IMG/VR virus record: IMGVR_UViG_2974610597_000001 | Direction: 5' to 3' (one strand) | Length of the DNA stretch: 64,000 bases | DNA from: Escherichia virus ESCO5 | Taxonomy: Duplodnaviria > Heunggongvirae > Uroviricota > Caudoviricetes | Shown here: in pieces, positions 1 through 62,331 of the stretch | Position numbering within the stretch: the first letter of the stretch is position 1 | How the letters are laid out: every line of letters starts with the position of its first letter | The notes under the pieces: model-generated | Database searches by the model: none | Told to the model about the DNA's origin: nothing | The model's input: the letters and a program-made list of their open reading frames with translations, nothing else | Made by a program: the position numbers and the translations under genes

Positions 1-1451
1 CTAGGGGTACTTCAACTTCTGCTGCTGGTTCTACATTAGCAATGAGTGCTGACCTTGGAGAAAACTGGAATTACTTAAGATTTCCTAACAACGTTCATCA
101 TACAAACCTACCATTTGCAAAAGTTGGTAACTACCTTTATATCTTTGGTACAGAACGTTCATTTGGAGAATGGGAAGGAGAAGAACTAGATAATAGATAT
201 AAAGGTACGTATCCTCGAACGTTTATGTGCAAGATTAATGTATCTGCATGGCCTGCATCTTTATCCGATGTTCAATGGTTTAATATCACCGATCAGATGT
301 ATCAAGGGCATATTGTTAATTCTGCATGTGGTGTTGGTTCGGTATGTGTTAAAGATGGTTGGTTATATTATATCTTTGGAGGCGAAGATTTCTTATCTCC
401 TTGGTCTATTGGGGATAATAGTAAAAAATTATGGTACAAGCACGATGGTCATCCAGCCGATTTATATAGCTATAGACTAAAGATTACCGAACATGATTTT
501 GTATCACGTGATTTCAAATATGGAGCTACGCCAAACCGTACATTGCCTGTATCTATGGGTACAGATGGGGTAAGGCATGTCTCAGCCCCTGTAACTTTTG
601 ATAATGATGTGCAAGTACACTCTTTAACAGTTACTGGTCTTGAGCATGATGGGACACAACAATCTGCCGTTAGAATAAAATTAGATGGTGATTATGGGGT
701 TGTTGCAAAAAATGTCCCAATAAAAAATCCTTCTGAACAGCGACTAATCTTATGTGGAGGAGAAACTCCTTACGTTACTGATGGATCGCTATTACAACTA
801 TATGGTTCAAACCATACGTATCCAAACAGAGCAGTTTTATATGCCCCAGGAGGAGCATATACCCAAAATAATTTCATGCCATATTTAGATGGACAAGTTG
901 CATTAGGTGGTGCATCTAACAGATGGTCAGAAGTGTACGCATCTACAGGAACCATTAATACTTCAGATGGAACATTAAAAACTAAACCTACAGAGATTGA
1001 AGATATTTTACTGAAAGCGTGGGAAGATATTCATGTAATCTCTTATCAATGGCTGAGTGCTATCGCGGAGAAAGGAGATTCTGCGCGTATTCATTTTGGT
1101 GTTATAGCTCAAGATGTAAGAGATATTCTGATTAATTATGGTTTAATGGATGAAAATAGCACTGATTGTAAGTATGCTTTTCTGTGTTATGATGAATACC
1201 CTGCTATGTACGATAGTGTTGTTACGGGACAAAAAGAAATCCCTTTATTTGATGATGAAGGGAATGTTGTAATTGATGAAGAAGGTAATCCAGTAACAAT
1301 CGTAGAAGATGTTGTAGAAACTATCGAAATAATTCCAGCAGGATCGCGATGGGGTATCCGCGCTGACCAAATGTTTTTTATTGAGATGGCTTATCAACGT
1401 AAAAAGTTAAAAGCTCTTGAAGAAAGACTTGCAACCCTGGAAAGTAAATAA
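1..1451 (+). CDS. Tail fiber/tailspike protein, C-terminal part with intramolecular-chaperone (peptidase S74-like) self-cleaving domain; 5' end outside window
   Basis: Frame of ORF 42..1451 stays open back to base 3, so gene is 5'-truncated. C-terminus (HFGVIAQDVRDILINYG ... coiled-coil KKLKALEERLATLESK) resembles the autoproteolytic C-terminal chaperone of phage L-shaped tail fibers/endosialidases. Confidence 0.55.
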   Translation, partial: RGTSTSAAGSTLAMSADLGENWNYLRFPNNVHHTNLPFAKVGNYLYIFGTERSFGEWEGEELDNRYKGTYPRTFMCKINVSAWPASLSDVQWFNITDQMYQGHIVNSACGVGSVCVKDGWLYYIFGGEDFLSPWSIGDNSKKLWYKHDGHPADLYSYRLKITEHDFVSRDFKYGATPNRTLPVSMGTDGVRHVSAPVTFDNDVQVHSLTVTGLEHDGTQQSAVRIKLDGDYGVVAKNVPIKNPSEQRLILCGGETPYVTDGSLLQLYGSNHTYPNRAVLYAPGGAYTQNNFMPYLDGQVALGGASNRWSEVYASTGTINTSDGTLKTKPTEIEDILLKAWEDIHVISYQWLSAIAEKGDSARIHFGVIAQDVRDILINYGLMDENSTDCKYAFLCYDEYPAMYDSVVTGQKEIPLFDDEGNVVIDEEGNPVTIVEDVVETIEIIPAGSRWGIRADQMFFIEMAYQRKKLKALEERLATLESK

Positions 1452-55722: not shown

Positions 55723-55875
55723 TCCTATACAAACCCTTGTCTTTTTCAGTTTGCATCACTAGGATTCGATCTGAGTGGGTTCCTGAAGGTCTGCCAATAA
55801 GATTAAAGGTTATCTCAAATTCCCACTACCTATTATCTCAAAAATCCCTCAAATTATTTAAACTTTTTAAGAATT

Positions 55876-56060
55876 TACAAAAGTGAAAGTTGAAAACCAA
55901 AATTTAAAGTTTAGGAAAATTATCTTAAAATGTCAGATACAAAACAAAACTCAAAAGTCAAGGAAAATTTTAAAAATTTTGCGCGCCCACAGTATTTAAA
56001 GTTTTTTTGCTTTTACAAAAATGAAAGTACAAAAGCAAAATTTAAAGTTTACAAAAATTT
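55876..56060. repeat. AT-rich direct repeats (about 45 bp, 2 full plus 1 partial copy)
   Basis: acaaaagtgaaagttgaaaaccaaaatttaaagtttaggaaaat (55876-) and acaaaaatgaaagtacaaaagcaaaatttaaagtttacaaaaat (56013-), with related partial copy around 55940. Confidence 0.7.
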
Positions 56061-56069
56061 ATGCAGATG

Positions 56070-56185
56070 GGAATGAGAAGAGTTCTCATATGGAAATGCA
56101 AATGATAATGATTCGCATTTAGGTTTATAAATGAGATTGATTCTTATTTGATAAGGTAAATGATAATCATTCTCATTTAGAGAAT
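56070..56185. repeat. Array of four about 29-bp tandem repeats, each carrying an imperfect palindrome AAATGAnA...TTCnCATTT (iteron/operator-like)
   Basis: Units begin near 56072, 56101, 56129, 56158: aatgagaagagttctcat / aatgataatgattcgcattt / aatgagattgattcttattt / aatgataatcattctcattt. Confidence 0.7.
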
Positions 56186-56436
56186 GACGCGCAGGGGCGG
56201 TGTTTGTCTCGCGCTCCCGTGTCCCCTCGCCATGTAATAAGAATAACAGATCCAGCCAGGAAAGCAAGCGATTATTTTATCTTTACATTTCTTTACAAAT
56301 ATATAGCGCCCAGCCTACCGGCGATCAACCTTCCAACCAGCGCCCTGGTATGTTAGCCCCGCCTTTACGCCGTGGGGGTGGCGCTTCCTCTTCTGTATGT
56401 AAAACAGTATAAGCCCGATCCCTGGGCTTGTCAAGA

Positions 56437-56889: not shown

Positions 56890-57087
56890 ATGGCAACATT
56901 GCACATTGTGGCGAAAGCTGGACAAATAAACGTGGTAGTAAACGGTTTTACTGAGTTCAGTCATCCCCAGGATGATCATGAAACGGTTTTATCTTTCATT
57001 GATTCTCTGTTAGAAATGGGAGTCATTACAGAAGACCAGCACGCTACAAAATGCAAGCGCGTTAATCAAATTGCAGGGATAGAATAA
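56890..57087 (+). CDS. Small early-type protein
   Basis: Start refined to ATG 56890 (SD GGAG upstream); ORF-track start 56812 would lie within the promoter. Confidence 0.4.
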   Translation: MATLHIVAKAGQINVVVNGFTEFSHPQDDHETVLSFIDSLLEMGVITEDQHATKCKRVNQIAGIE

Positions 57088-57093
57088 AAAGTA

Positions 57094-57155
57094 TTGACAA
57101 CAAACAACAACCTGATAAGATGTATCACATAGGGCGGCGGAATGGTCCACCGCTC
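57094..57155 (+). promoter_or_regulatory. Promoter-hairpin cassette 2
   Basis: TTGACA - 16 nt - TAAGAT, then GTATCACATA and hairpin GGGCGGCGG...CCACCGCTC. Confidence 0.5.
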
Positions 57156-57178
57156 ACAACAGAAGAGAGATTATAATC

Positions 57179-57451
57179 ATGGCATCATATAGCGCAACAA
57201 TGATCGTAGCTGGCACCACTGGTAAACCTATGAGCGGTGGCGGATCTTTCGCAAATATCAACATTGACGGGCGTTTATCCCTGGACGCAGCGATCACCGT
57301 GGCGCGGGAAACATTTAAGAAAGAATGTAAATTCAATAAACAAGATTATCTCGGTTTTGCTATTGAAAAAACCGCGCGCTTTGTTGATTATAAAAGCCCG
57401 AAGATGGTTGATACTACACTAAAAGCGCAAGATGTAGCGTTTTTGCTTTAA
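57179..57451 (+). CDS. Small early-type protein
   Basis: 90-aa ORF after SD AGAGAGA. Confidence 0.4.
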   Translation: MASYSATMIVAGTTGKPMSGGGSFANINIDGRLSLDAAITVARETFKKECKFNKQDYLGFAIEKTARFVDYKSPKMVDTTLKAQDVAFLL

Positions 57452-57454
57452 GGC

Positions 57455-57510
57455 TTGACATTAACGAATAATTTGTTAATATGTTACATAAAGCGGGAAT
57501 AGTTCCCGCT
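57455..57510 (+). promoter_or_regulatory. Promoter-hairpin cassette 3
   Basis: TTGACA - 17 nt - TAATAT, hairpin AGCGGGAA-TAG-TTCCCGCT. Confidence 0.5.
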
Positions 57511-57527
57511 ATTTGTAAGGTGGTAGA

Positions 57528-57785
57528 ATGTTTTACATCAAATTAAAAGGTCACGTGATCGCGTTCAAAGATAACGCTTTTTACAGATTAGCAAAATATG
57601 CGTTAATACATCCCCACTATGTTTATATAAGGGGGCGTGATGAAATAAATATCTTTGATCAAACAACATGCGAGAACATCGAGATCCGCAAGGTTGGCGT
57701 ACGTGATTATCGTACATCTTTCTACCCTTGCAAGGATTCAGCAAGTCTTTTTAAAGTATGCCAATTGTTGAAAAAAGGTGGTTAA
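57528..57785 (+). CDS. Small early-type protein
   Basis: 85-aa ORF after SD AAGGTGG. Confidence 0.4.
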   Translation: MFYIKLKGHVIAFKDNAFYRLAKYALIHPHYVYIRGRDEINIFDQTTCENIEIRKVGVRDYRTSFYPCKDSASLFKVCQLLKKGG

Positions 57786-57786
57786 T

Positions 57787-58344
57787 ATGGGCCGCGAATA
57801 TGTGATCCAGTCTTGGGTAAAACATGAAGCAGATGATCCGCGCATCATTCCCGATCATCTTATCGATGAATCCACGGGATATAGCGGTGAGCAAATAGGT
57901 AACAGATTAGCACGTAGTAACGGCAACGTAAAAGCGCGTTATGTGCGCCCTGGCTGGCTGGCAAATGGTAACGCTGATTTATCCAGTGCGGAAGATGCGA
58001 GCGACGGCGCGAAAGATAATCCTTTGTACAAAGTTGATCCGGCTTTTCGTGTCCTGGATGAATACCCCAGCAAGATAGCGGCGCTCGATCAGGCCCTGGA
58101 AAGTCAGCGCATCACCTGGACCGCTTACAACATGGCAAAAAACGTACTTGATGGTAAATTGATTCAAGCTGAAAGAAAATTAGCCAAAATTGCAGCCATA
58201 GCCCAGGAGGAAGACGAGGAGACAACGGAAGAGGAAGAGTACGAAGAGATCCCGCCGTTGTTGTGTGTTGATGCTTTTCCTGATTATCAGCCGACAGAGG
58301 AAGAAAAAAGGATCGCACTAGAAAACTTTGAAAATAGTCTTTGA
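57787..58344 (+). CDS. Hypothetical protein with acidic C-terminal region
   Basis: Start refined to ATG 57787 (SD AAGGTGG); Glu-rich stretch QEEDEETTEEEEYEE. Confidence 0.4.
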   Translation: MGREYVIQSWVKHEADDPRIIPDHLIDESTGYSGEQIGNRLARSNGNVKARYVRPGWLANGNADLSSAEDASDGAKDNPLYKVDPAFRVLDEYPSKIAALDQALESQRITWTAYNMAKNVLDGKLIQAERKLAKIAAIAQEEDEETTEEEEYEEIPPLLCVDAFPDYQPTEEEKRIALENFENSL

Positions 58345-58399
58345 CATATCGCCGCCACTGGCATAATATTTACCACGTAGGGCGGCAATGGTGCCGCTC
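58341..58399 (+). promoter_or_regulatory. Promoter-hairpin cassette 4
   Basis: TTGACA - 17 nt - TAATAT + TTACCACGTA + GGGCGGCAATGGTGCCGCTC; near-identical to cassette 1. Confidence 0.55.
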
Positions 58400-58426
58400 A
58401 TAGTGAAATTATGCAAGAGGCTTACA

Positions 58427-58522
58427 ATGATTAATAAAGGAAATAGCTTGACGGTTGGAACGATTAACGCTATCATTCTCGCCGTTCCATTTTGGGTTGT
58501 AGTAGCGGCTATTATTTTCTAA
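58427..58522 (+). CDS. Small hydrophobic peptide (31 aa, missed by ORF track)
   Basis: Own cassette upstream, SD AGAGG; MINKGNSLTVGTINAIILAVPFWVVVAAIIF. Confidence 0.35.
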   Translation: MINKGNSLTVGTINAIILAVPFWVVVAAIIF

Positions 58523-58531
58523 AAAATATTC

Positions 58532-58591
58532 TTGACAACGTTTTTTAATCTGATAAGATGTATCACATAGGGCGGCGGAATACTTCCCCGC
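58532..58591 (+). promoter_or_regulatory. Promoter-hairpin cassette 5
   Basis: TTGACA - 16 nt - TAAGAT + GTATCACATA + GGGCGGCGGAATACTTCCCCGCC; spacer near-identical to cassette 2. Confidence 0.5.
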
Positions 58592-58613
58592 CAAAACAAA
58601 AAAGGGTAACACA

Positions 58614-58976
58614 ATGAGCAAGCAAATCAATACTATCATGTTAAACCTGGTATCCTTCCGCGATGATATGAAAAATTTACCACGTGAAACGGTTGATATT
58701 CATGTTTCAGCTTATCGCGCCCTTATTGACATGTTACCGCTAAAACGTGATCAACATGCCGCTAATATGATGCTTAATGCTATGCTTAAAAAAATGATTC
58801 AAACGGATCTCACTCTGGCGTATGAGTATCAAGGGCGCTTATATGCAACTTACAACAAGGCGGTACCTGGTCTGGGAAGTACCGAAGAGTTGCACGGCTT
58901 AAACCTGGATCAAAACACTTGGGATAGTATGCGCCGCGTTATGGTATGGGCCGAAAGCGGTAAAATTTACGAATAA
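58614..58976 (+). CDS. Small early-type protein
   Basis: 120-aa ORF after SD AAAGGG. Confidence 0.4.
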   Translation: MSKQINTIMLNLVSFRDDMKNLPRETVDIHVSAYRALIDMLPLKRDQHAANMMLNAMLKKMIQTDLTLAYEYQGRLYATYNKAVPGLGSTEELHGLNLDQNTWDSMRRVMVWAESGKIYE

Positions 58977-58982
58977 AAACGG

Positions 58983-59042
58983 TTGACACTGTTTAAAATT
59001 CTAGTATAGTTTACCACATAGGGCGGGAAGTGGTTTCCCGCC
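58983..59042 (+). promoter_or_regulatory. Promoter-hairpin cassette 6
   Basis: TTGACA - 17 nt - TATAGT + TTACCACATA + GGGCGGGAA-GTGGT-TTCCCGCC. Confidence 0.55.
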
Positions 59043-59064
59043 AACAATGAAAAAGGTTATCATC

Positions 59065-59430
59065 ATGGCTATTAATATTAATGTTTCCTCTTATGCTACC
59101 CTGGCTAACACGGCTAAAATTGAATTATCCAGCATTGAGGCGGTGCATATTAGCGCCCGTCGCTGGTTTCAACAGTCCTACGGTAACACATATTTTTCTT
59201 TAATGGTTGACGTTGAGATCGGCGGCAAACTGATTGAAGTGGTAAACGTGCCGTTCCAATATGGATACGGGGATCACTTTGACACTGTAGCAATGGAAGA
59301 ATTTAGCAAGGTTATTAATATGGAAGGTAAAGAGTTTTCACGCGGCGAGTATCTTTCCCGTTTTTGCCGTGACAATGGGATCACTGTATACAGTCATGCA
59401 AGCGATGTTAAACGTAAAAAAGATCTATAA
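59065..59430 (+). CDS. Small early-type protein
   Basis: Start set to ATG 59065 by analogy with 59851 gene (same AAAGGTTATCAT-ATGGCT context); ATG 59047 also possible. Confidence 0.4.
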   Translation: MAININVSSYATLANTAKIELSSIEAVHISARRWFQQSYGNTYFSLMVDVEIGGKLIEVVNVPFQYGYGDHFDTVAMEEFSKVINMEGKEFSRGEYLSRFCRDNGITVYSHASDVKRKKDL

Positions 59431-59436
59431 AAAGCA

Positions 59437-59496
59437 TTGACAGCACGAATAAAAAGAGTAAACTGTATTACATAGAGAGCGGGAACACTTCCCGCC
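59437..59496 (+). promoter_or_regulatory. Promoter-hairpin cassette 7
   Basis: TTGACA ... TAAACT/TATTAC, hairpin GAGCGGGAA-CAC-TTCCCGCC. Confidence 0.45.
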
Positions 59497-59519
59497 TCAC
59501 TGAAAAAGAGAGAAAAATC

Positions 59520-59759
59520 ATGGCTAAATCTAAAATTTACAACGGTCACAAAAACAAAACTCATTGGAATGTAAGCCTTTGGATCAACAACGATGAAGGT
59601 TTTTATAATCTTGCGCGTGAATTTATTGCAGCTAACACCAATAAGAATGACGCAGCGCGTGATATGATGTTATTTCTTGAAAGTATGGATCAAGATAAAA
59701 CGCCAGACGGTTACAAGTTCAGTAAAACTGCAATCCGTGCCGCTATGGTAGGAATGTAA
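59520..59759 (+). CDS. Small early-type protein
   Basis: 79-aa ORF after SD AAAGAGAGA. Confidence 0.4.
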   Translation: MAKSKIYNGHKNKTHWNVSLWINNDEGFYNLAREFIAANTNKNDAARDMMLFLESMDQDKTPDGYKFSKTAIRAAMVGM

Positions 59760-59768
59760 TAAAATAGC

Positions 59769-59829
59769 TTGACACTGATTTTTATTCTGGTATAGTTTAT
59801 CACATAGGGCGGGAAGTGGTTTCCCGCCA
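59769..59829 (+). promoter_or_regulatory. Promoter-hairpin cassette 8
   Basis: About 85 percent identical to cassette 6 over about 88 bp incl. GGGCGGGAAGTGGTTTCCCGCC. Confidence 0.55.
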
Positions 59830-59850
59830 AATCAAAGAAAGGTTATCATT

Positions 59851-60078
59851 ATGGCTATCGTTATTGTTCGCGTATCCGGCACGGTTGGAATCTCCCAGGT
59901 AGTAGCAGTTATCACCGAGAAGAAAGGGGATGATCTTCACTCTTCCTTGAATAGCTGGGCGGTCGCTAACTTCGGGCAATGGTCGAGCGTCGAGTACATC
60001 GAATCCTACCAGGTGCCGACGATTAGCCTAACCGATCTCAACGTTGATCGCTTGTTGTGCCTGGATGAATTAATCTGA
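59851..60078 (+). CDS. Small early-type protein
   Basis: 75-aa ORF. Confidence 0.4.
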   Translation: MAIVIVRVSGTVGISQVVAVITEKKGDDLHSSLNSWAVANFGQWSSVEYIESYQVPTISLTDLNVDRLLCLDELI

Positions 60079-60088
60079 AAAAAGATTA

Positions 60089-60146
60089 TTGACACCGGAA
60101 AGAAAAAGAGTAGAATATATTACATAGGGCGGCAATGGTGCCGCTC
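60089..60146 (+). promoter_or_regulatory. Promoter-hairpin cassette 9
   Basis: TTGACA - 17 nt - TAGAAT + hairpin GGGCGGCAATGGTGCCGCTC. Confidence 0.5.
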
Positions 60147-60167
60147 ACAACTAAAAGAGAAATCATC

Positions 60168-60362
60168 ATGGCGCTTAAAAAACTAACAAGCAATACTCGT
60201 TGGGATGAAATTGACGGGGAAGTATACATTTTCGCCCGTAAACCAGGTGATCAAAAATGGTCAAAGGCTTTTACTTGCCACCCTGCAACAATAGACCTGA
60301 TAAAAAGGGAAGGTTTACGTGAAGCGGTAGCAAGAAGTTTACTGATCCCTTATAAAAAATAG
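60168..60362 (+). CDS. Small early-type protein
   Basis: Start refined to ATG 60168 (SD AAAAGAGA). Confidence 0.4.
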   Translation: MALKKLTSNTRWDEIDGEVYIFARKPGDQKWSKAFTCHPATIDLIKREGLREAVARSLLIPYKK

Positions 60363-60363
60363 T

Positions 60364-60426
60364 TTGACAATATGCTGTTATCTGGTAAAGTGTACGACAT
60401 AGGGCGGGGCAATAAGGCAACGCCCA
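60364..60426 (+). promoter_or_regulatory. Promoter-hairpin cassette 10
   Basis: TTGACA - 17 nt - TAAAGT, hairpin GGGCGGGGCAATAAGGCAACGCCC. Confidence 0.45.
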
Positions 60427-60443
60427 TTAATGAGGGTAGAATC

Positions 60444-60548
60444 ATGTTAGAGAAAATTTTCACGGTTGTAATAGTTGGCCTGGCGTTATCGGTTGGATTG
60501 GTTGCAACTATGGCTAACATGATCCTATCTTCCCACGGTATTGGATAA
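60444..60548 (+). CDS. Small hydrophobic peptide (34 aa, missed by ORF track)
   Basis: SD GAGGGTAG then ATG 60444; MLEKIFTVVIVGLALSVGLVATMANMILSSHGIG. Confidence 0.35.
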   Translation: MLEKIFTVVIVGLALSVGLVATMANMILSSHGIG

Positions 60549-60558
60549 GGTGAATCAA

Positions 60559-60774
60559 ATGATCACGAATAAGACAGGTAAAACAGAATTTTTACGCGGC
60601 TTGCAAATAGGTAAACCTGAGATCTGGCATTGCACTAAATCCGCGCATAATGAAATGAAAGATTTTACCGCTACTTTACAACGTGTTAAAATATCTATCA
60701 CACAGAAAAAAGCCTTGTTAGTAGTAGAAAACGAGATCCCGCAAACTATTATTATTGTCGAGCGTACAGCATGA
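60559..60774 (+). CDS. Small early-type protein
   Basis: Start refined to ATG 60559 (SD TAAGGTGA); track start 60541 is a TTG codon. Confidence 0.35.
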   Translation: MITNKTGKTEFLRGLQIGKPEIWHCTKSAHNEMKDFTATLQRVKISITQKKALLVVENEIPQTIIIVERTA

Positions 60775-61163: not shown

Positions 61164-61220
61164 TTGACACAGATCGCCAGTGTGCTAATATTTACCACGT
61201 AGGGCGGCAATGGTGCCGCC
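61164..61220 (+). promoter_or_regulatory. Promoter-hairpin cassette 11
   Basis: TTGACA - 17 nt - TAATAT + TTACCACGTA + GGGCGGCAATGGTGCCGCC. Confidence 0.55.
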
Positions 61221-61238
61221 GATAATGAGGAAAGTAAA

Positions 61239-61873: not shown

Positions 61874-62164
61874 ATGAAAAAGATGATCGCAGTAGTTGCC
61901 CTGGTTGTTGGTATTAACGCGCCTGTACTGGCTAATGAGTTGCCAGAATCCATCACGCTAACCGATATCAACGCAATAAACCGGATCGGCGTTAATTATC
62001 GCCTATGCCTTGCCGCTAAAACTTTCCAGGACGGCACGACAGAATACCACGGATTCGAGGGTATCCGCTGCGGTGAGCTTGCACGCGACCTTAAGGAAGA
62101 TCCAGACCTTGAGGCCATACCGATGACCGTAAACGGTAAAGCTTACGTAAACCGCCAACAATGA
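61874..62164 (+). CDS. Secreted/periplasmic small protein
   Basis: 96 aa; signal peptide MKKMIAVVALVVGINAPVLA. Confidence 0.4.
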   Translation: MKKMIAVVALVVGINAPVLANELPESITLTDINAINRIGVNYRLCLAAKTFQDGTTEYHGFEGIRCGELARDLKEDPDLEAIPMTVNGKAYVNRQQ

Positions 62165-62295
62165 GAAAGGTAATCATCACAATGGGGATCGTAGTAGCAA
62201 CGCTGGCGCTTATCCCCTTCATGGTTGAACATGTGCTGATCAGTGTTGTCCTTGTAGTCAGTGACCTATTGGAAACGGTTGGCACCTGGTTTTAA
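62161..62295 (+). CDS. Small membrane peptide (44 aa, missed by ORF track)
   Basis: ATGA overlap with upstream stop; MRKVIITMGIVVATLALIPFMVEHVLISVVLVVSDLLETVGTWF. Confidence 0.35.
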   Translation: MRKVIITMGIVVATLALIPFMVEHVLISVVLVVSDLLETVGTWF

Positions 62296-62303
62296 GATAA
62301 TAA

Positions 62304-62331
62304 ATAGGGCTTGCAATAGTCCTATTTTTTG
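62304..62331 (+). terminator. Rho-independent terminator
   Basis: Hairpin TAGGGC-TTGCAATA-GTCCTA (one G-U pair) followed by TTTTTT. Confidence 0.5.

What the first reader, a model, noticed from the sequence alone, without database searches (positions are those of the whole stretch)
58427..58522. Unannotated 31-aa hydrophobic peptide gene with its own promoter-hairpin cassette
A full cassette (58341..58399) and SD precede a short ORF encoding MINKGNSLTVGTINAIILAVPFWVVVAAIIF, below the ORF-track size cut-off. A dedicated promoter for so small a peptide suggests it is a real early product, e.g. a membrane-targeting inhibitor of a host protein.
Basis: seen in the sequence. Interest (0 to 1): 0.4.

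Follow-up and report, generated by a model that had tools for sequence, protein, structure and literature searches.

The report
Tiny conserved phage membrane-peptide gene
A 31-codon gene left unannotated in this E. coli phage genome is real: it sits behind one of eleven repeated promoter-hairpin cassettes, is kept intact in over a hundred related phages, and encodes one membrane-spanning helix whose function has not been tested.

Summary
The window is Escherichia phage ESCO5 (Phapecoctavirus). ORF 58427..58522 encodes MINKGNSLTVGTINAIILAVPFWVVVAAIIF. An AAGAGG Shine-Dalgarno lies 6 nt upstream, behind a sigma70-type promoter plus GC hairpin. This is one of 11 such cassettes (0 expected by chance), all on the + strand between 56.8 and 62.5 kb.

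The ORF is missing from the ESCO5 record but is annotated as "hypothetical protein" in many relatives. tblastn finds it in 114 phage records. In 22 sampled relatives the frame is always open. The sense frame has the lowest pN/pS of the six frames (0.28). Leu18 uses five different codons. Klebsiella-phage homologues (about 45-55% identity) keep the cassette, and some also the upstream neighbour gene. One relative, AV123, has lost the native start through a deletion, so the gene is probably dispensable.

The product is predicted to be a single helix and is very hydrophobic. It matches no Pfam, NCBIfam, PHROG, PADLOC or PDB family. The conserved residues G11, N14, A15, L18 and P21 lie on one helical face.

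Best reading: an early accessory inner-membrane micropeptide carried on a PeSL-like gene cassette, probably acting by helix-helix contact. The target is unknown. This is an annotation gap plus an uncharacterised small-protein family of modest interest.

The parts
58342..58344 (+). TGA stop codon of the upstream 185-aa gene (57787..58344, phrog_16605), embedded in the -35 hexamer
58341..58346 (+). -35 hexamer TTGACA of the cassette
58364..58369 (+). -10 hexamer TAATAT after a 17-nt spacer; predicted +1 at about 58376-58377, within the conserved CAC(A/G)TAGGGCGG
   Evidence: the +1 is inferred from spacing and has not been mapped
58380..58399 (+). GC-rich hairpin (8 bp, loop AUGG) beginning 3-4 nt after the predicted +1
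   Evidence: -14.4 kcal/mol, z -3.0; all 11 cassettes fold at -14.0 to -15.7 kcal/mol
58415..58420 (+). Shine-Dalgarno AAGAGG, 6 nt before the ATG
58427..58522 (+). 31-aa ORF (stop included) encoding MINKGNSLTVGTINAIILAVPFWVVVAAIIF, a single predicted TM helix
58448..58476 (+). Promoter-like TTGACG-N17-TATCAT inside the ORF (10/12 match). Significance unknown. The TTGACG is one end of the AV123 deletion
58532..58593 (+). The next cassette (promoter plus hairpin), which drives the 120-aa gene 58614..58976. The peptide's TAA lies in its upstream A-rich tract

Best explanation
Window 58427..58522 is a real protein-coding gene for a 31-residue single-pass inner-membrane micropeptide. It has a short polar, Lys-containing N-terminus, most likely cytoplasmic, and its TM helix runs to the C-terminus.

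It is one unit in an array of PeSL-like gene cassettes. Each cassette has the upstream gene's stop codon in an A-rich tract, a sigma70-type promoter, a GC hairpin at the 5' end of the transcript, an SD and an ATG. Host RNA polymerase would therefore transcribe it immediately after infection.

Because the TM segment is still inside the ribosome when translation ends, the peptide must insert post-translationally. It most likely acts within the membrane by helix-helix packing through the conserved face G11/N14/A15/L18/P21, on a host or phage membrane protein. Possible roles include superinfection exclusion, blocking a membrane-bound defence effector, or modulating a transporter or protease. It is an accessory, dispensable gene that moves between positions in the array by recombination at or near the cassettes.

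Shown: the cassette, the ORF, purifying selection on the sense frame, predicted helicity and hydrophobicity, and the mosaic contexts. Inferred: early timing, the transcription start, membrane topology, the role of the 5' hairpin (mRNA stabiliser and/or attenuator), and partner binding.
For: Cassette: 11 copies against 0 expected, uniform hairpins and a constant -35-to-ATG distance of 75-86 nt. These place this ATG exactly where the other, longer ORFs in the array begin.

Spread: tblastn finds the peptide in 114 phage records, 105 of them with at least 80% coverage. Gene callers and submitters already call it.

Coding signal: in 22 sampled relatives the sense frame is open in all. Four of the other five frames carry stops in 17-22 of the 22; only the codon-complement antisense frame stays open, in 20 of 22. 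Sense-frame pN/pS is 0.28 (0.20 for codons 1-23), the lowest of the six frames. Variable columns by codon position are 10/6/18. Leu18 uses 5 codons and Pro21 uses 3.

Deep conservation: Klebsiella-phage homologues at 45-55% identity (BLASTP E = 4e-12) keep the same cassette, and KP2025 and phi1_175008 also keep the upstream 185-aa neighbour.

Independent contexts: a start codon with an SD is kept in four different 5' contexts.

Product: KD19 hydropathy maximum 2.63. AlphaFold2 predicts a helix over residues 4-30, pLDDT 86.6. Invariant residues are I2, K4, N6, G11, N14 and P21; A15, L18, V20 and W23 are nearly invariant. By my own helical-wheel arithmetic, G11, N14, A15, L18 and P21 fall within a 120-degree arc.

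RNA alternative: no Rfam family matches.
Against: There is no transcript, ribosome-footprint or peptide evidence, and I found no literature on this family.

The sequences are related and recombinant, so the pairwise pN/pS values are not independent.

The core 58444-58476 is almost invariant at the DNA level among the E. coli phages and looks like a promoter, so some of the constraint could be on the DNA.

AV123 has lost the promoter spacer, UTR, SD and first 7 codons through a TTGACG-to-TTGACG deletion, so the gene is not essential.

Hydrophobic small ORFs occur by chance at about 3% of small ORFs in the window.

Topology is ambiguous in variants that end in K or KKYS.

Nothing identifies a partner.
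Confidence: 0.6

Rival explanations
1. Self-assembling membrane-damaging peptide, working like type I toxins (TisB, Hok, Ibs, Ldr) or a mini-holin. Early expression would depolarise or permeabilise the inner membrane to shut down host metabolism or to exclude competitors.
For: The size, the single TM helix and the short polar N-terminus resemble these toxins. A small-residue stripe G11-x3-A15-x3-A19 plus Asn14 could support oligomerisation. Promoter-like sites on the antisense strand exist downstream of the ORF in ESCO5 (58538..58511) and in phi92.
Against: None of the sampled peptides matches any toxin family in Pfam or NCBIfam at E <= 10; the single Pfam line is a sub-threshold DsbD_2 match for 05F01. 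The transcript fold is not unusually stable (z = -1.03), and that fold pairs only part of the SD, unlike type I toxin mRNAs. The antisense promoter-like sites lie in non-homologous contexts and are of chance quality. The helix is not amphipathic with charged residues. The gene lies in the cassette array, with neighbours of unknown function rather than next to lysis genes. Early depolarisation would harm a phage that needs an energised host.
Confidence: 0.2
2. Translated leader or upstream ORF: the act of translating it matters, through coupling or mRNA protection for the downstream cistron, rather than the peptide itself.
For: In phi92, nepoznato, WPEC6, PD114 and ECO340P2 the ORF ends 10 nt before a 93-aa gene. 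In 05F01 it overlaps the upstream gene. In ESCO5 no terminator-like site follows it.
Against: The amino-acid sequence is under purifying selection (pN/pS 0.20 over codons 1-23). It is kept with three unrelated downstream neighbours, and in ESCO5 a full promoter cassette separates it from the next gene. The TM character is conserved down to about 45% identity.
Confidence: 0.07
3. Not a functional product. On this view the open frame is a by-product of a conserved DNA/RNA element (internal promoter, recombination site) or of a decaying gene remnant.
For: The core 58444-58476 is nearly invariant at the DNA level among the E. coli phages and contains TTGACG-N17-TATCAT. AV123 shows recombination at that TTGACG. 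ESCO5's annotators did not call the ORF.
Against: The Klebsiella-phage homologues diverge strongly at synonymous sites (pS 0.66-0.70) yet keep the peptide motif. KP2025 lacks the TTGACG and 05F01 has no good -10 hexamer after its TTGACA. The sense frame has the lowest pN/pS of six frames, and there are no frameshifts in 22 sequences. The SD is preserved in four contexts.
Confidence: 0.08

Closest known systems
PeSL (promoter-early stem-loop) cassettes with ORFans in T4-like phages RB49/phi1 (Arbiol et al. 2010, PMC2839356; Comeau et al. 2014, PMC4122927)
   Same: The upstream gene's stop codon lies in an A/T-rich tract, followed by a sigma70-consensus promoter, a G/C-rich stem-loop, and the SD and ATG of a small gene of unknown function. 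The units are clustered in a plastic region and are associated with insertion, deletion and replacement between close relatives (one search compared).
   Different: The phage lineage is different (Stephanstirmvirinae). The hairpin always sits just after the -10 hexamer and the predicted +1, which is only one of five PeSL subclasses, so it is part of the 5' end of the cassette's own transcript. Its 5' arm has a fixed sequence, (A/G)TAGGGCGG. Promoter and terminator activity and mini-circles have not been tested here.
Type I toxin peptides of E. coli (TisB, Hok/Gef, Ibs, Ldr, ShoB)
   Same: Peptides of about 20-50 aa with one hydrophobic helix.
   Different: No sequence match. No convincing antisense RNA partner and no structured, translation-blocking mRNA. 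The context is a lytic-phage cassette array.
Small regulatory inner-membrane proteins (AcrZ, MgtS, MgrB, KdpF, SgrT), named from my own knowledge
   Same: Single-helix proteins of 50 aa or less, whose conserved intramembrane residues contact a larger membrane protein. This is the mode of action proposed here.
   Different: No homology, phage-encoded, and no partner known.
Phage superinfection-exclusion membrane proteins (T4 Imm and Sp, HK97 gp15) and 'moron'-type units, named from my own knowledge
   Same: Small accessory phage membrane proteins expressed from their own promoter that act at the inner membrane.
   Different: Those proteins are two to three times longer and unrelated in sequence. 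No PHROG family matches the peptide. No exclusion phenotype has been tested.

Membership tests
PeSL-type promoter/stem-loop gene cassette | sigma70-consensus -35/-10 promoter repeated between small genes | tested here: met
   11 copies on the + strand against 0 in shuffles; each matches 9-11 of 12 hexamer positions
PeSL-type promoter/stem-loop gene cassette | A/T-rich tract upstream of -35 that carries the upstream gene's stop codon | tested here: met
   The alignment consensus is AATAAAAA before TTGACA. At c58341 the TGA overlaps the -35, and the peptide's own TAA lies in the A-tract of c58532
PeSL-type promoter/stem-loop gene cassette | stable G/C-rich stem-loop next to or overlapping the promoter | tested here: met
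   All 11 fold at -14.0 to -15.7 kcal/mol, z from -3.0 to -5.1. The position is always downstream of -10
PeSL-type promoter/stem-loop gene cassette | SD and start codon of the downstream gene at the 3' end | tested here: met
   -35-to-ATG distance is 75-86 nt in every copy
PeSL-type promoter/stem-loop gene cassette | mediates indels and replacements of flanked ORFans between related phages | tested here: inconclusive
   The peptide gene has three 5' and three 3' contexts and two positions in the array. It is absent after the 185-aa gene in L024. The ESCO5 record has a 55-nt cassette duplication that the window lacks. Breakpoints were not mapped systematically
PeSL-type promoter/stem-loop gene cassette | demonstrated promoter and terminator activity; mini-circle formation; T4-like phage lineage | not testable with these tools
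   These need reporter assays and inverse PCR. The lineage is Stephanstirmvirinae, not T4-like, so this is an analogue and not a family member by descent
Type I toxin peptides (Hok, Ldr, Ibs, TisB, ShoB) | small hydrophobic single-TM peptide | tested here: met
   31 aa, KD19 maximum 2.63, helix over residues 4-30
Type I toxin peptides (Hok, Ldr, Ibs, TisB, ShoB) | sequence match to a described toxin family | tested here: not met
   No toxin family in Pfam or NCBIfam matches any of the sampled peptides at E <= 10; the only Pfam line is a sub-threshold DsbD_2 match for 05F01. The short length limits sensitivity
Type I toxin peptides (Hok, Ldr, Ibs, TisB, ShoB) | antisense or overlapping sRNA antitoxin and a structured mRNA that blocks translation | tested here: inconclusive
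   Antisense promoter-like sites exist (58538..58511; phi92 861..832) but lie in non-homologous contexts. The transcript fold has z = -1.03. No Rfam hit
Type I toxin peptides (Hok, Ldr, Ibs, TisB, ShoB) | toxicity and membrane depolarisation on expression | not testable with these tools
   requires an experiment
Holin / antiholin | located in a lysis cassette; 60 aa or more with a charged C-terminal tail | tested here: not met
   The four neighbours scanned match only unknown-function PHROGs in the cassette array. The peptide is 31 aa and ends within the TM helix
Small regulatory inner-membrane proteins (AcrZ/MgtS/MgrB type) | 50 aa or less, a single TM helix, with a conserved intramembrane face | tested here: met
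   G11, N14, A15, L18 and P21 lie on one face (my own helical-wheel arithmetic)
Small regulatory inner-membrane proteins (AcrZ/MgtS/MgrB type) | physical binding to, and modulation of, a larger membrane protein | not testable with these tools
   needs pull-down, two-hybrid or suppressor genetics

The most novel reading that the evidence does not exclude
The peptide is a phage early effector that binds one specific host inner-membrane machine through its invariant G11/N14/P21 helix face. The target could be a DNA-entry route used by competing phages or a membrane-anchored defence effector. It would be one of a set of at least three cassette-borne hydrophobic micropeptides in this array (58427, 60444, 62161), which together form a previously unrecognised membrane-targeting arm of host takeover in phi92/phAPEC8-like phages.
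Probability: 0.25. Interest if true: 0.55.

Novelty: new member of a known kind. Interest (0 to 1): 0.3.

Why it matters
Small membrane proteins are systematically missed by phage annotation. In this one ESCO5 array at least three hydrophobic ORFs of 31-44 aa, and a 75-aa ORF, are absent from the record, although at least the first two peptides are widely conserved in related phages. Phapecoctavirus and Justusliebigvirus phages are used as therapeutic candidates, so an early membrane-active peptide bears on host takeover, superinfection exclusion and safety annotation. The very regular promoter/5'-hairpin/SD cassette is also a compact natural expression module. It extends the PeSL idea of recombination-prone regulatory cassettes that shuffle ORFans beyond T4-like phages. 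Without a phenotype, however, this remains an annotation correction plus an uncharacterised family.

Tried and rejected
Searches that found nothing:
- PHROGs, Pfam, NCBIfam and PADLOC scans of the peptide and its variants gave no match. The only line was a sub-threshold DsbD_2 hit for the 05F01 variant.
- PDB sequence searches with the peptide and with a 12-member profile gave nothing significant.
- Rfam on 57.5-59.5 kb found nothing. There are no tRNAs in the window.
- phmmer against 1.84 billion representatives found only one other cluster, the 35-aa form of the same family.

Degenerate-motif DNA scans:
- The viral-contig scan returned four family loci, one of them new and Klebsiella-type, plus four unrelated hits.
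None contained the family motif, so the family was not found in bacterial genomes, but the scan was incomplete.

Literature:
- Searches for Phapecoctavirus/phi92/rV5 promoters, early genes, small membrane proteins and the motif TAGGGCGG found nothing on this peptide or on the cassette hairpin. The rV5 paper lists only sigma70-type promoters.

Readings considered and rejected:
- The 44-aa version starting at ATG 58388. That ATG lies in the hairpin loop, has no SD, and recurs in every cassette with the CAATGGTG loop.
- The antisense 76-aa ORF 58409..58639. It spans the next cassette, and its frame has a worse pN/pS of 0.44, as expected for a codon-complement frame.
- A lipoprotein or signal peptide. 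There is no Cys or lipobox, and no mature domain.

Full report
**Identity of the window.** The 1.8 kb around the finding is 99.9% identical to Escherichia phage ESCO5 (KX664695.3; Phapecoctavirus, Stephanstirmvirinae). Window 57000-60700 is an exact substring of that record. The region lies near the right end of the record, in a run of small + strand genes of unknown function. The four neighbouring proteins I scanned hit only unknown-function PHROGs.

**The observation.**
- TTGACA at 58341-58346, which overlaps the TGA stop of the upstream 185-aa gene.
- A 17-nt spacer, then TAATAT at 58364-58369.
- A GC hairpin at 58380-58399.
- AAGAGG at 58415-58420, ATG at 58427 and TAA at 58520-58522.
- The translation is MINKGNSLTVGTINAIILAVPFWVVVAAIIF.

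**The cassette is a true repeat.**
- The pattern TTGAC-N28-32-ACRTAGRGNG occurs 11 times, all on the + strand between 56812 and 62513, against none in 100 shuffles.
- The aligned copies share an A-rich tract, TTGAC, a -10 hexamer and an almost invariant CAC(A/G)TAGGGCGG.
- Each copy folds into a hairpin of -14.0 to -15.7 kcal/mol that begins 3-4 nt after the purine I take as +1.
- The distance from -35 to the downstream ATG is 75-86 nt in every copy, and 86 nt for the peptide (for c60364 the true ATG is 60444).
- So the peptide's start codon sits exactly where the starts of the other ten, longer ORFs in the array sit.
- The annotators of phage ASO2A marked the same elements as a 'promoter' followed by a 'terminator'.

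**Annotation status.** The ESCO5 record has no feature between ESCO5_00007 and ESCO5_00006. The same ORF is annotated as 'hypothetical protein' in:
- ASO2A (ASO2A_267);
- ESCO13 (HOR21_gp162);
- ukendt, Schickermooser, JohannJBalmer (bas62_0109) and nepoznato.

The exact peptide and its variants are in NCBI, UniRef and ENA protein sets, and a gene caller called it on an ENA contig. So 'unannotated' describes a gap in one record, not an unknown ORF.

**Is it a gene?** tblastn finds the peptide in 114 phage records, 105 of them with at least 80% coverage. These include phi92 (70% identity) and Klebsiella Stephanstirmvirinae (about 50%). I fetched 21 relatives plus an IMG/VR contig.
- The sense frame is open in all 22 sequences. 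Four of the other five frames carry stops in 17-22 of them. Only the codon-complement antisense frame stays open, in 20 of 22.
- Over 16 unique E. coli-phage sequences, sense-frame pN/pS is 0.28 (0.20 in codons 1-23, 0.48 in codons 24-30). This is the lowest of the six frames; the antisense complement frame gives 0.44.
- Variable columns by codon position are 10/6/18. Leu18 uses CTA, CTC, CTT, TTA and TTG, and Pro21 uses three codons.
- These pairs are not independent, so the numbers are descriptive. The deeper comparisons point the same way: against the Klebsiella phages pS is 0.66-0.70 and pN is 0.32-0.39.
- The peptides still align with I2, K4, N6, G11, N14 and P21 invariant, and A15, L18, V20 and W23 nearly so. 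BLASTP between an E. coli type and a Klebsiella type gives 55% identity, E = 4e-12.
- The Klebsiella homologues KP2025 and phi1_175008 keep both the upstream 185-aa neighbour and a cassette of the same type. The IMG/VR contig L034 keeps the cassette.
- A start codon with an SD is kept in four unrelated 5' contexts.

I conclude the ORF is protein-coding and under purifying selection.

**Mosaic contexts.**
- In Phapecoctavirus the gene follows the 185-aa gene and its own cassette.
- In Justusliebigvirus (phi92, VEcB, alia, ALITA, JohannJBalmer, PD114) it is the first gene after the divergent junction. It lies behind a different promoter (TTGACG-N17-TATTAT) and a 5' leader of about 125 nt.
- In phiWec186, PsgM04F and L023 another 27-aa hydrophobic ORF lies between the cassette and the peptide.
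- In 05F01 the ORF overlaps the preceding gene.
- Downstream it is followed by a cassette plus the 120-aa gene (ESCO5, VEcB), by a cassette plus a 90-aa gene (alia, ALITA), or, 10 nt away, by a 93-aa or 63-aa gene (phi92, nepoznato, phAPEC8).
- The C-terminal residues differ with the downstream neighbour, and the N-terminal MINKGNS versus MIKKENS differs with the upstream one. This implies recombination inside or beside the ORF.
- One contig lacks the gene after the 185-aa gene but has it at the phi92-type position.
- AV123 has a 177-nt deletion between the -35 TTGACG of the phi92-type promoter and the TTGACG formed by codons Leu8-Thr9. It removes the UTR, the SD and seven codons. The gene is therefore probably dispensable.

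**The product.**
- The hydropathy maximum over 19 residues is 2.63, far above any other cassette-led ORF.
- AlphaFold2 on the single sequence gives one helix over residues 4-30, mean pLDDT 86.6.
- There is no Cys or lipobox and no extramembrane domain.
- Because the helix reaches the C-terminus, insertion must be post-translational. This is an inference from established knowledge of small and tail-anchored membrane proteins.
- The Lys-rich N-terminus favours an N-in orientation, but variants that end in K or KKYS make this uncertain.
- G11, N14, A15, L18 and P21 fall within a 120-degree arc of the helix (my arithmetic). This is the signature of a packing interface rather than of general hydrophobicity.
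- No described family matches: PHROGs, Pfam, NCBIfam, PADLOC and PDB all gave nothing.
- A full HMMER pass over 1.84 billion representatives returned only the 35-aa form of the same family.
- Degenerate-motif DNA scans found it only in Stephanstirmvirinae-like viral contigs, and in none of 120 bacterial loci from an incomplete scan.

**Mechanism.** The best-supported account has four steps.
1. Host sigma70 RNA polymerase starts at about 58376-58377.
2. The transcript carries a 5'-terminal hairpin. From established E. coli mRNA-decay biology, such a hairpin should slow 5'-end-dependent RNase E attack. As in PeSLs, it may also attenuate read-through from upstream.
3. The AAGAGG SD drives translation of a 31-aa helix that inserts into the inner membrane.
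4. The helix acts there through its conserved face on a membrane protein.

No terminator-like site follows the ORF. The promoter therefore probably also feeds the downstream gene, and 'dedicated' is only partly right.

The rival that the peptide is a depolarising, type I toxin-like agent is not excluded. It lacks support, however: there is no family match, no structured translation-blocking mRNA (z = -1.03), and only chance-quality antisense promoter-like sites. A pure leader-ORF role conflicts with the selection on the amino-acid sequence. A non-coding explanation conflicts with the synonymous divergence seen in the Klebsiella homologues.

**Comparison with known systems.** The cassette corresponds feature by feature to the PeSL elements of T4-like phages RB49 and phi1. 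Both have a stop codon in an AT-rich tract, a sigma70 promoter, a G/C stem-loop, an SD plus ATG, an association with ORFans, and plasticity between close relatives (PMC2839356). Here the elements are in a different phage subfamily, and the hairpin has a fixed position and a fixed 5' arm. This makes them an analogue rather than a member by descent. The peptide belongs to the general kind 'small single-pass membrane protein', with no detectable relation to any named family.

**Verdict.** The finding is a correct catch of a real, conserved but uncharacterised micro-gene that one record omits. It is ordinary in kind and unknown in function. Its main value is as a pointer to several overlooked membrane micropeptides in this early array.

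Noticed in passing
window 60444..60548 (+): A second small hydrophobic ORF, 34 aa (MLEKIFTVVIVGLALSVGLVATMANMILSSHGIG), lies behind cassette c60364 and 10 nt before the next gene. It is unannotated in the ESCO5 record. tblastn finds it in 229 phage records, including rV5-like phages at about 59% identity.
   Followed up: partly
window 62161..62295 (+): A third hydrophobic small ORF, 44 aa (MRKVIITMGIVVATLALIPFMVEHVLISVVLVVSDLLETVGTWF). Its ATG overlaps the stop of the preceding 96-aa gene (ATGA). It is followed by a strong terminator-like hairpin at 62302..62327. It falls in an unannotated gap of the ESCO5 record.
   Followed up: no
window 59851..60078 (+): A 75-aa ORF behind cassette c59769, with an SD, lies in a gap of the ESCO5 annotation. 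It is called as a gene on a near-identical ENA contig.
   Followed up: no
window 60135 vs 60168: The annotated start of ESCO5_00003 (window 60135) is the ATG inside the cassette's hairpin loop (CAATGGTG). The SD-preceded ATG at 60168 fits the constant cassette-to-ATG spacing better. The same loop ATG produces the spurious 44-aa version of the peptide (58388) that is annotated in phage EP57.
   Followed up: partly
window ~61164..61225 vs KX664695.3 ~145.45 kb: The GenBank ESCO5 record carries a 55-nt tandem duplication of cassette c61164 (spacer, -10 and hairpin) that the window lacks. This is either cassette-level plasticity or an assembly difference.
   Followed up: partly
window 55850..56190: A dense set of direct repeats lies in an apparently non-coding stretch just upstream of the divergent junction of the array. 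There are three 51-nt units at 29-nt spacing (AATGAGA..CATTT), a 72-nt pair 138 nt apart, and 29-nt AAAAC-rich units. They look iteron-like and could mark an origin or a regulatory region.
   Followed up: no
L011 (phage AV123) 659..784 vs L003 (phi92) 545..727: A natural 177-nt deletion between two TTGACG hexamers: the promoter -35 and codons 8-9 of the peptide. It leaves a chimeric ORF (MKKRLKKG-LTVG...) without an SD. AV123's annotators called the opposite strand instead.
   Followed up: yes
L005, L006, L023 (PsgM04F, phiWec186, IMG/VR 3300014004); e.g. L023 2133..2216: An extra 27-aa hydrophobic ORF (MSTTSLFFAINFIPGFRAALEIILWTL) is inserted between the cassette and the peptide gene in this sub-lineage. 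It matches no Pfam family.
   Followed up: partly
window 58448..58476 (+) and 58538..58511 (-): Two promoter-like sites lie in or next to the peptide ORF. One is internal, TTGACG-N17-TATCAT (10/12). The other is on the antisense strand, TTGTCA-N16-AATAAT (10/12), and is formed by the reverse complement of the next cassette. Neither was tested for conservation beyond inspection.
   Followed up: no
window 58614..58976 (+): ESCO5_00006 is annotated as 'membrane protein', but it has no hydrophobic segment (KD19 maximum 0.62). It matches only unknown-function PHROGs, so the label looks inherited rather than supported.
   Followed up: partly
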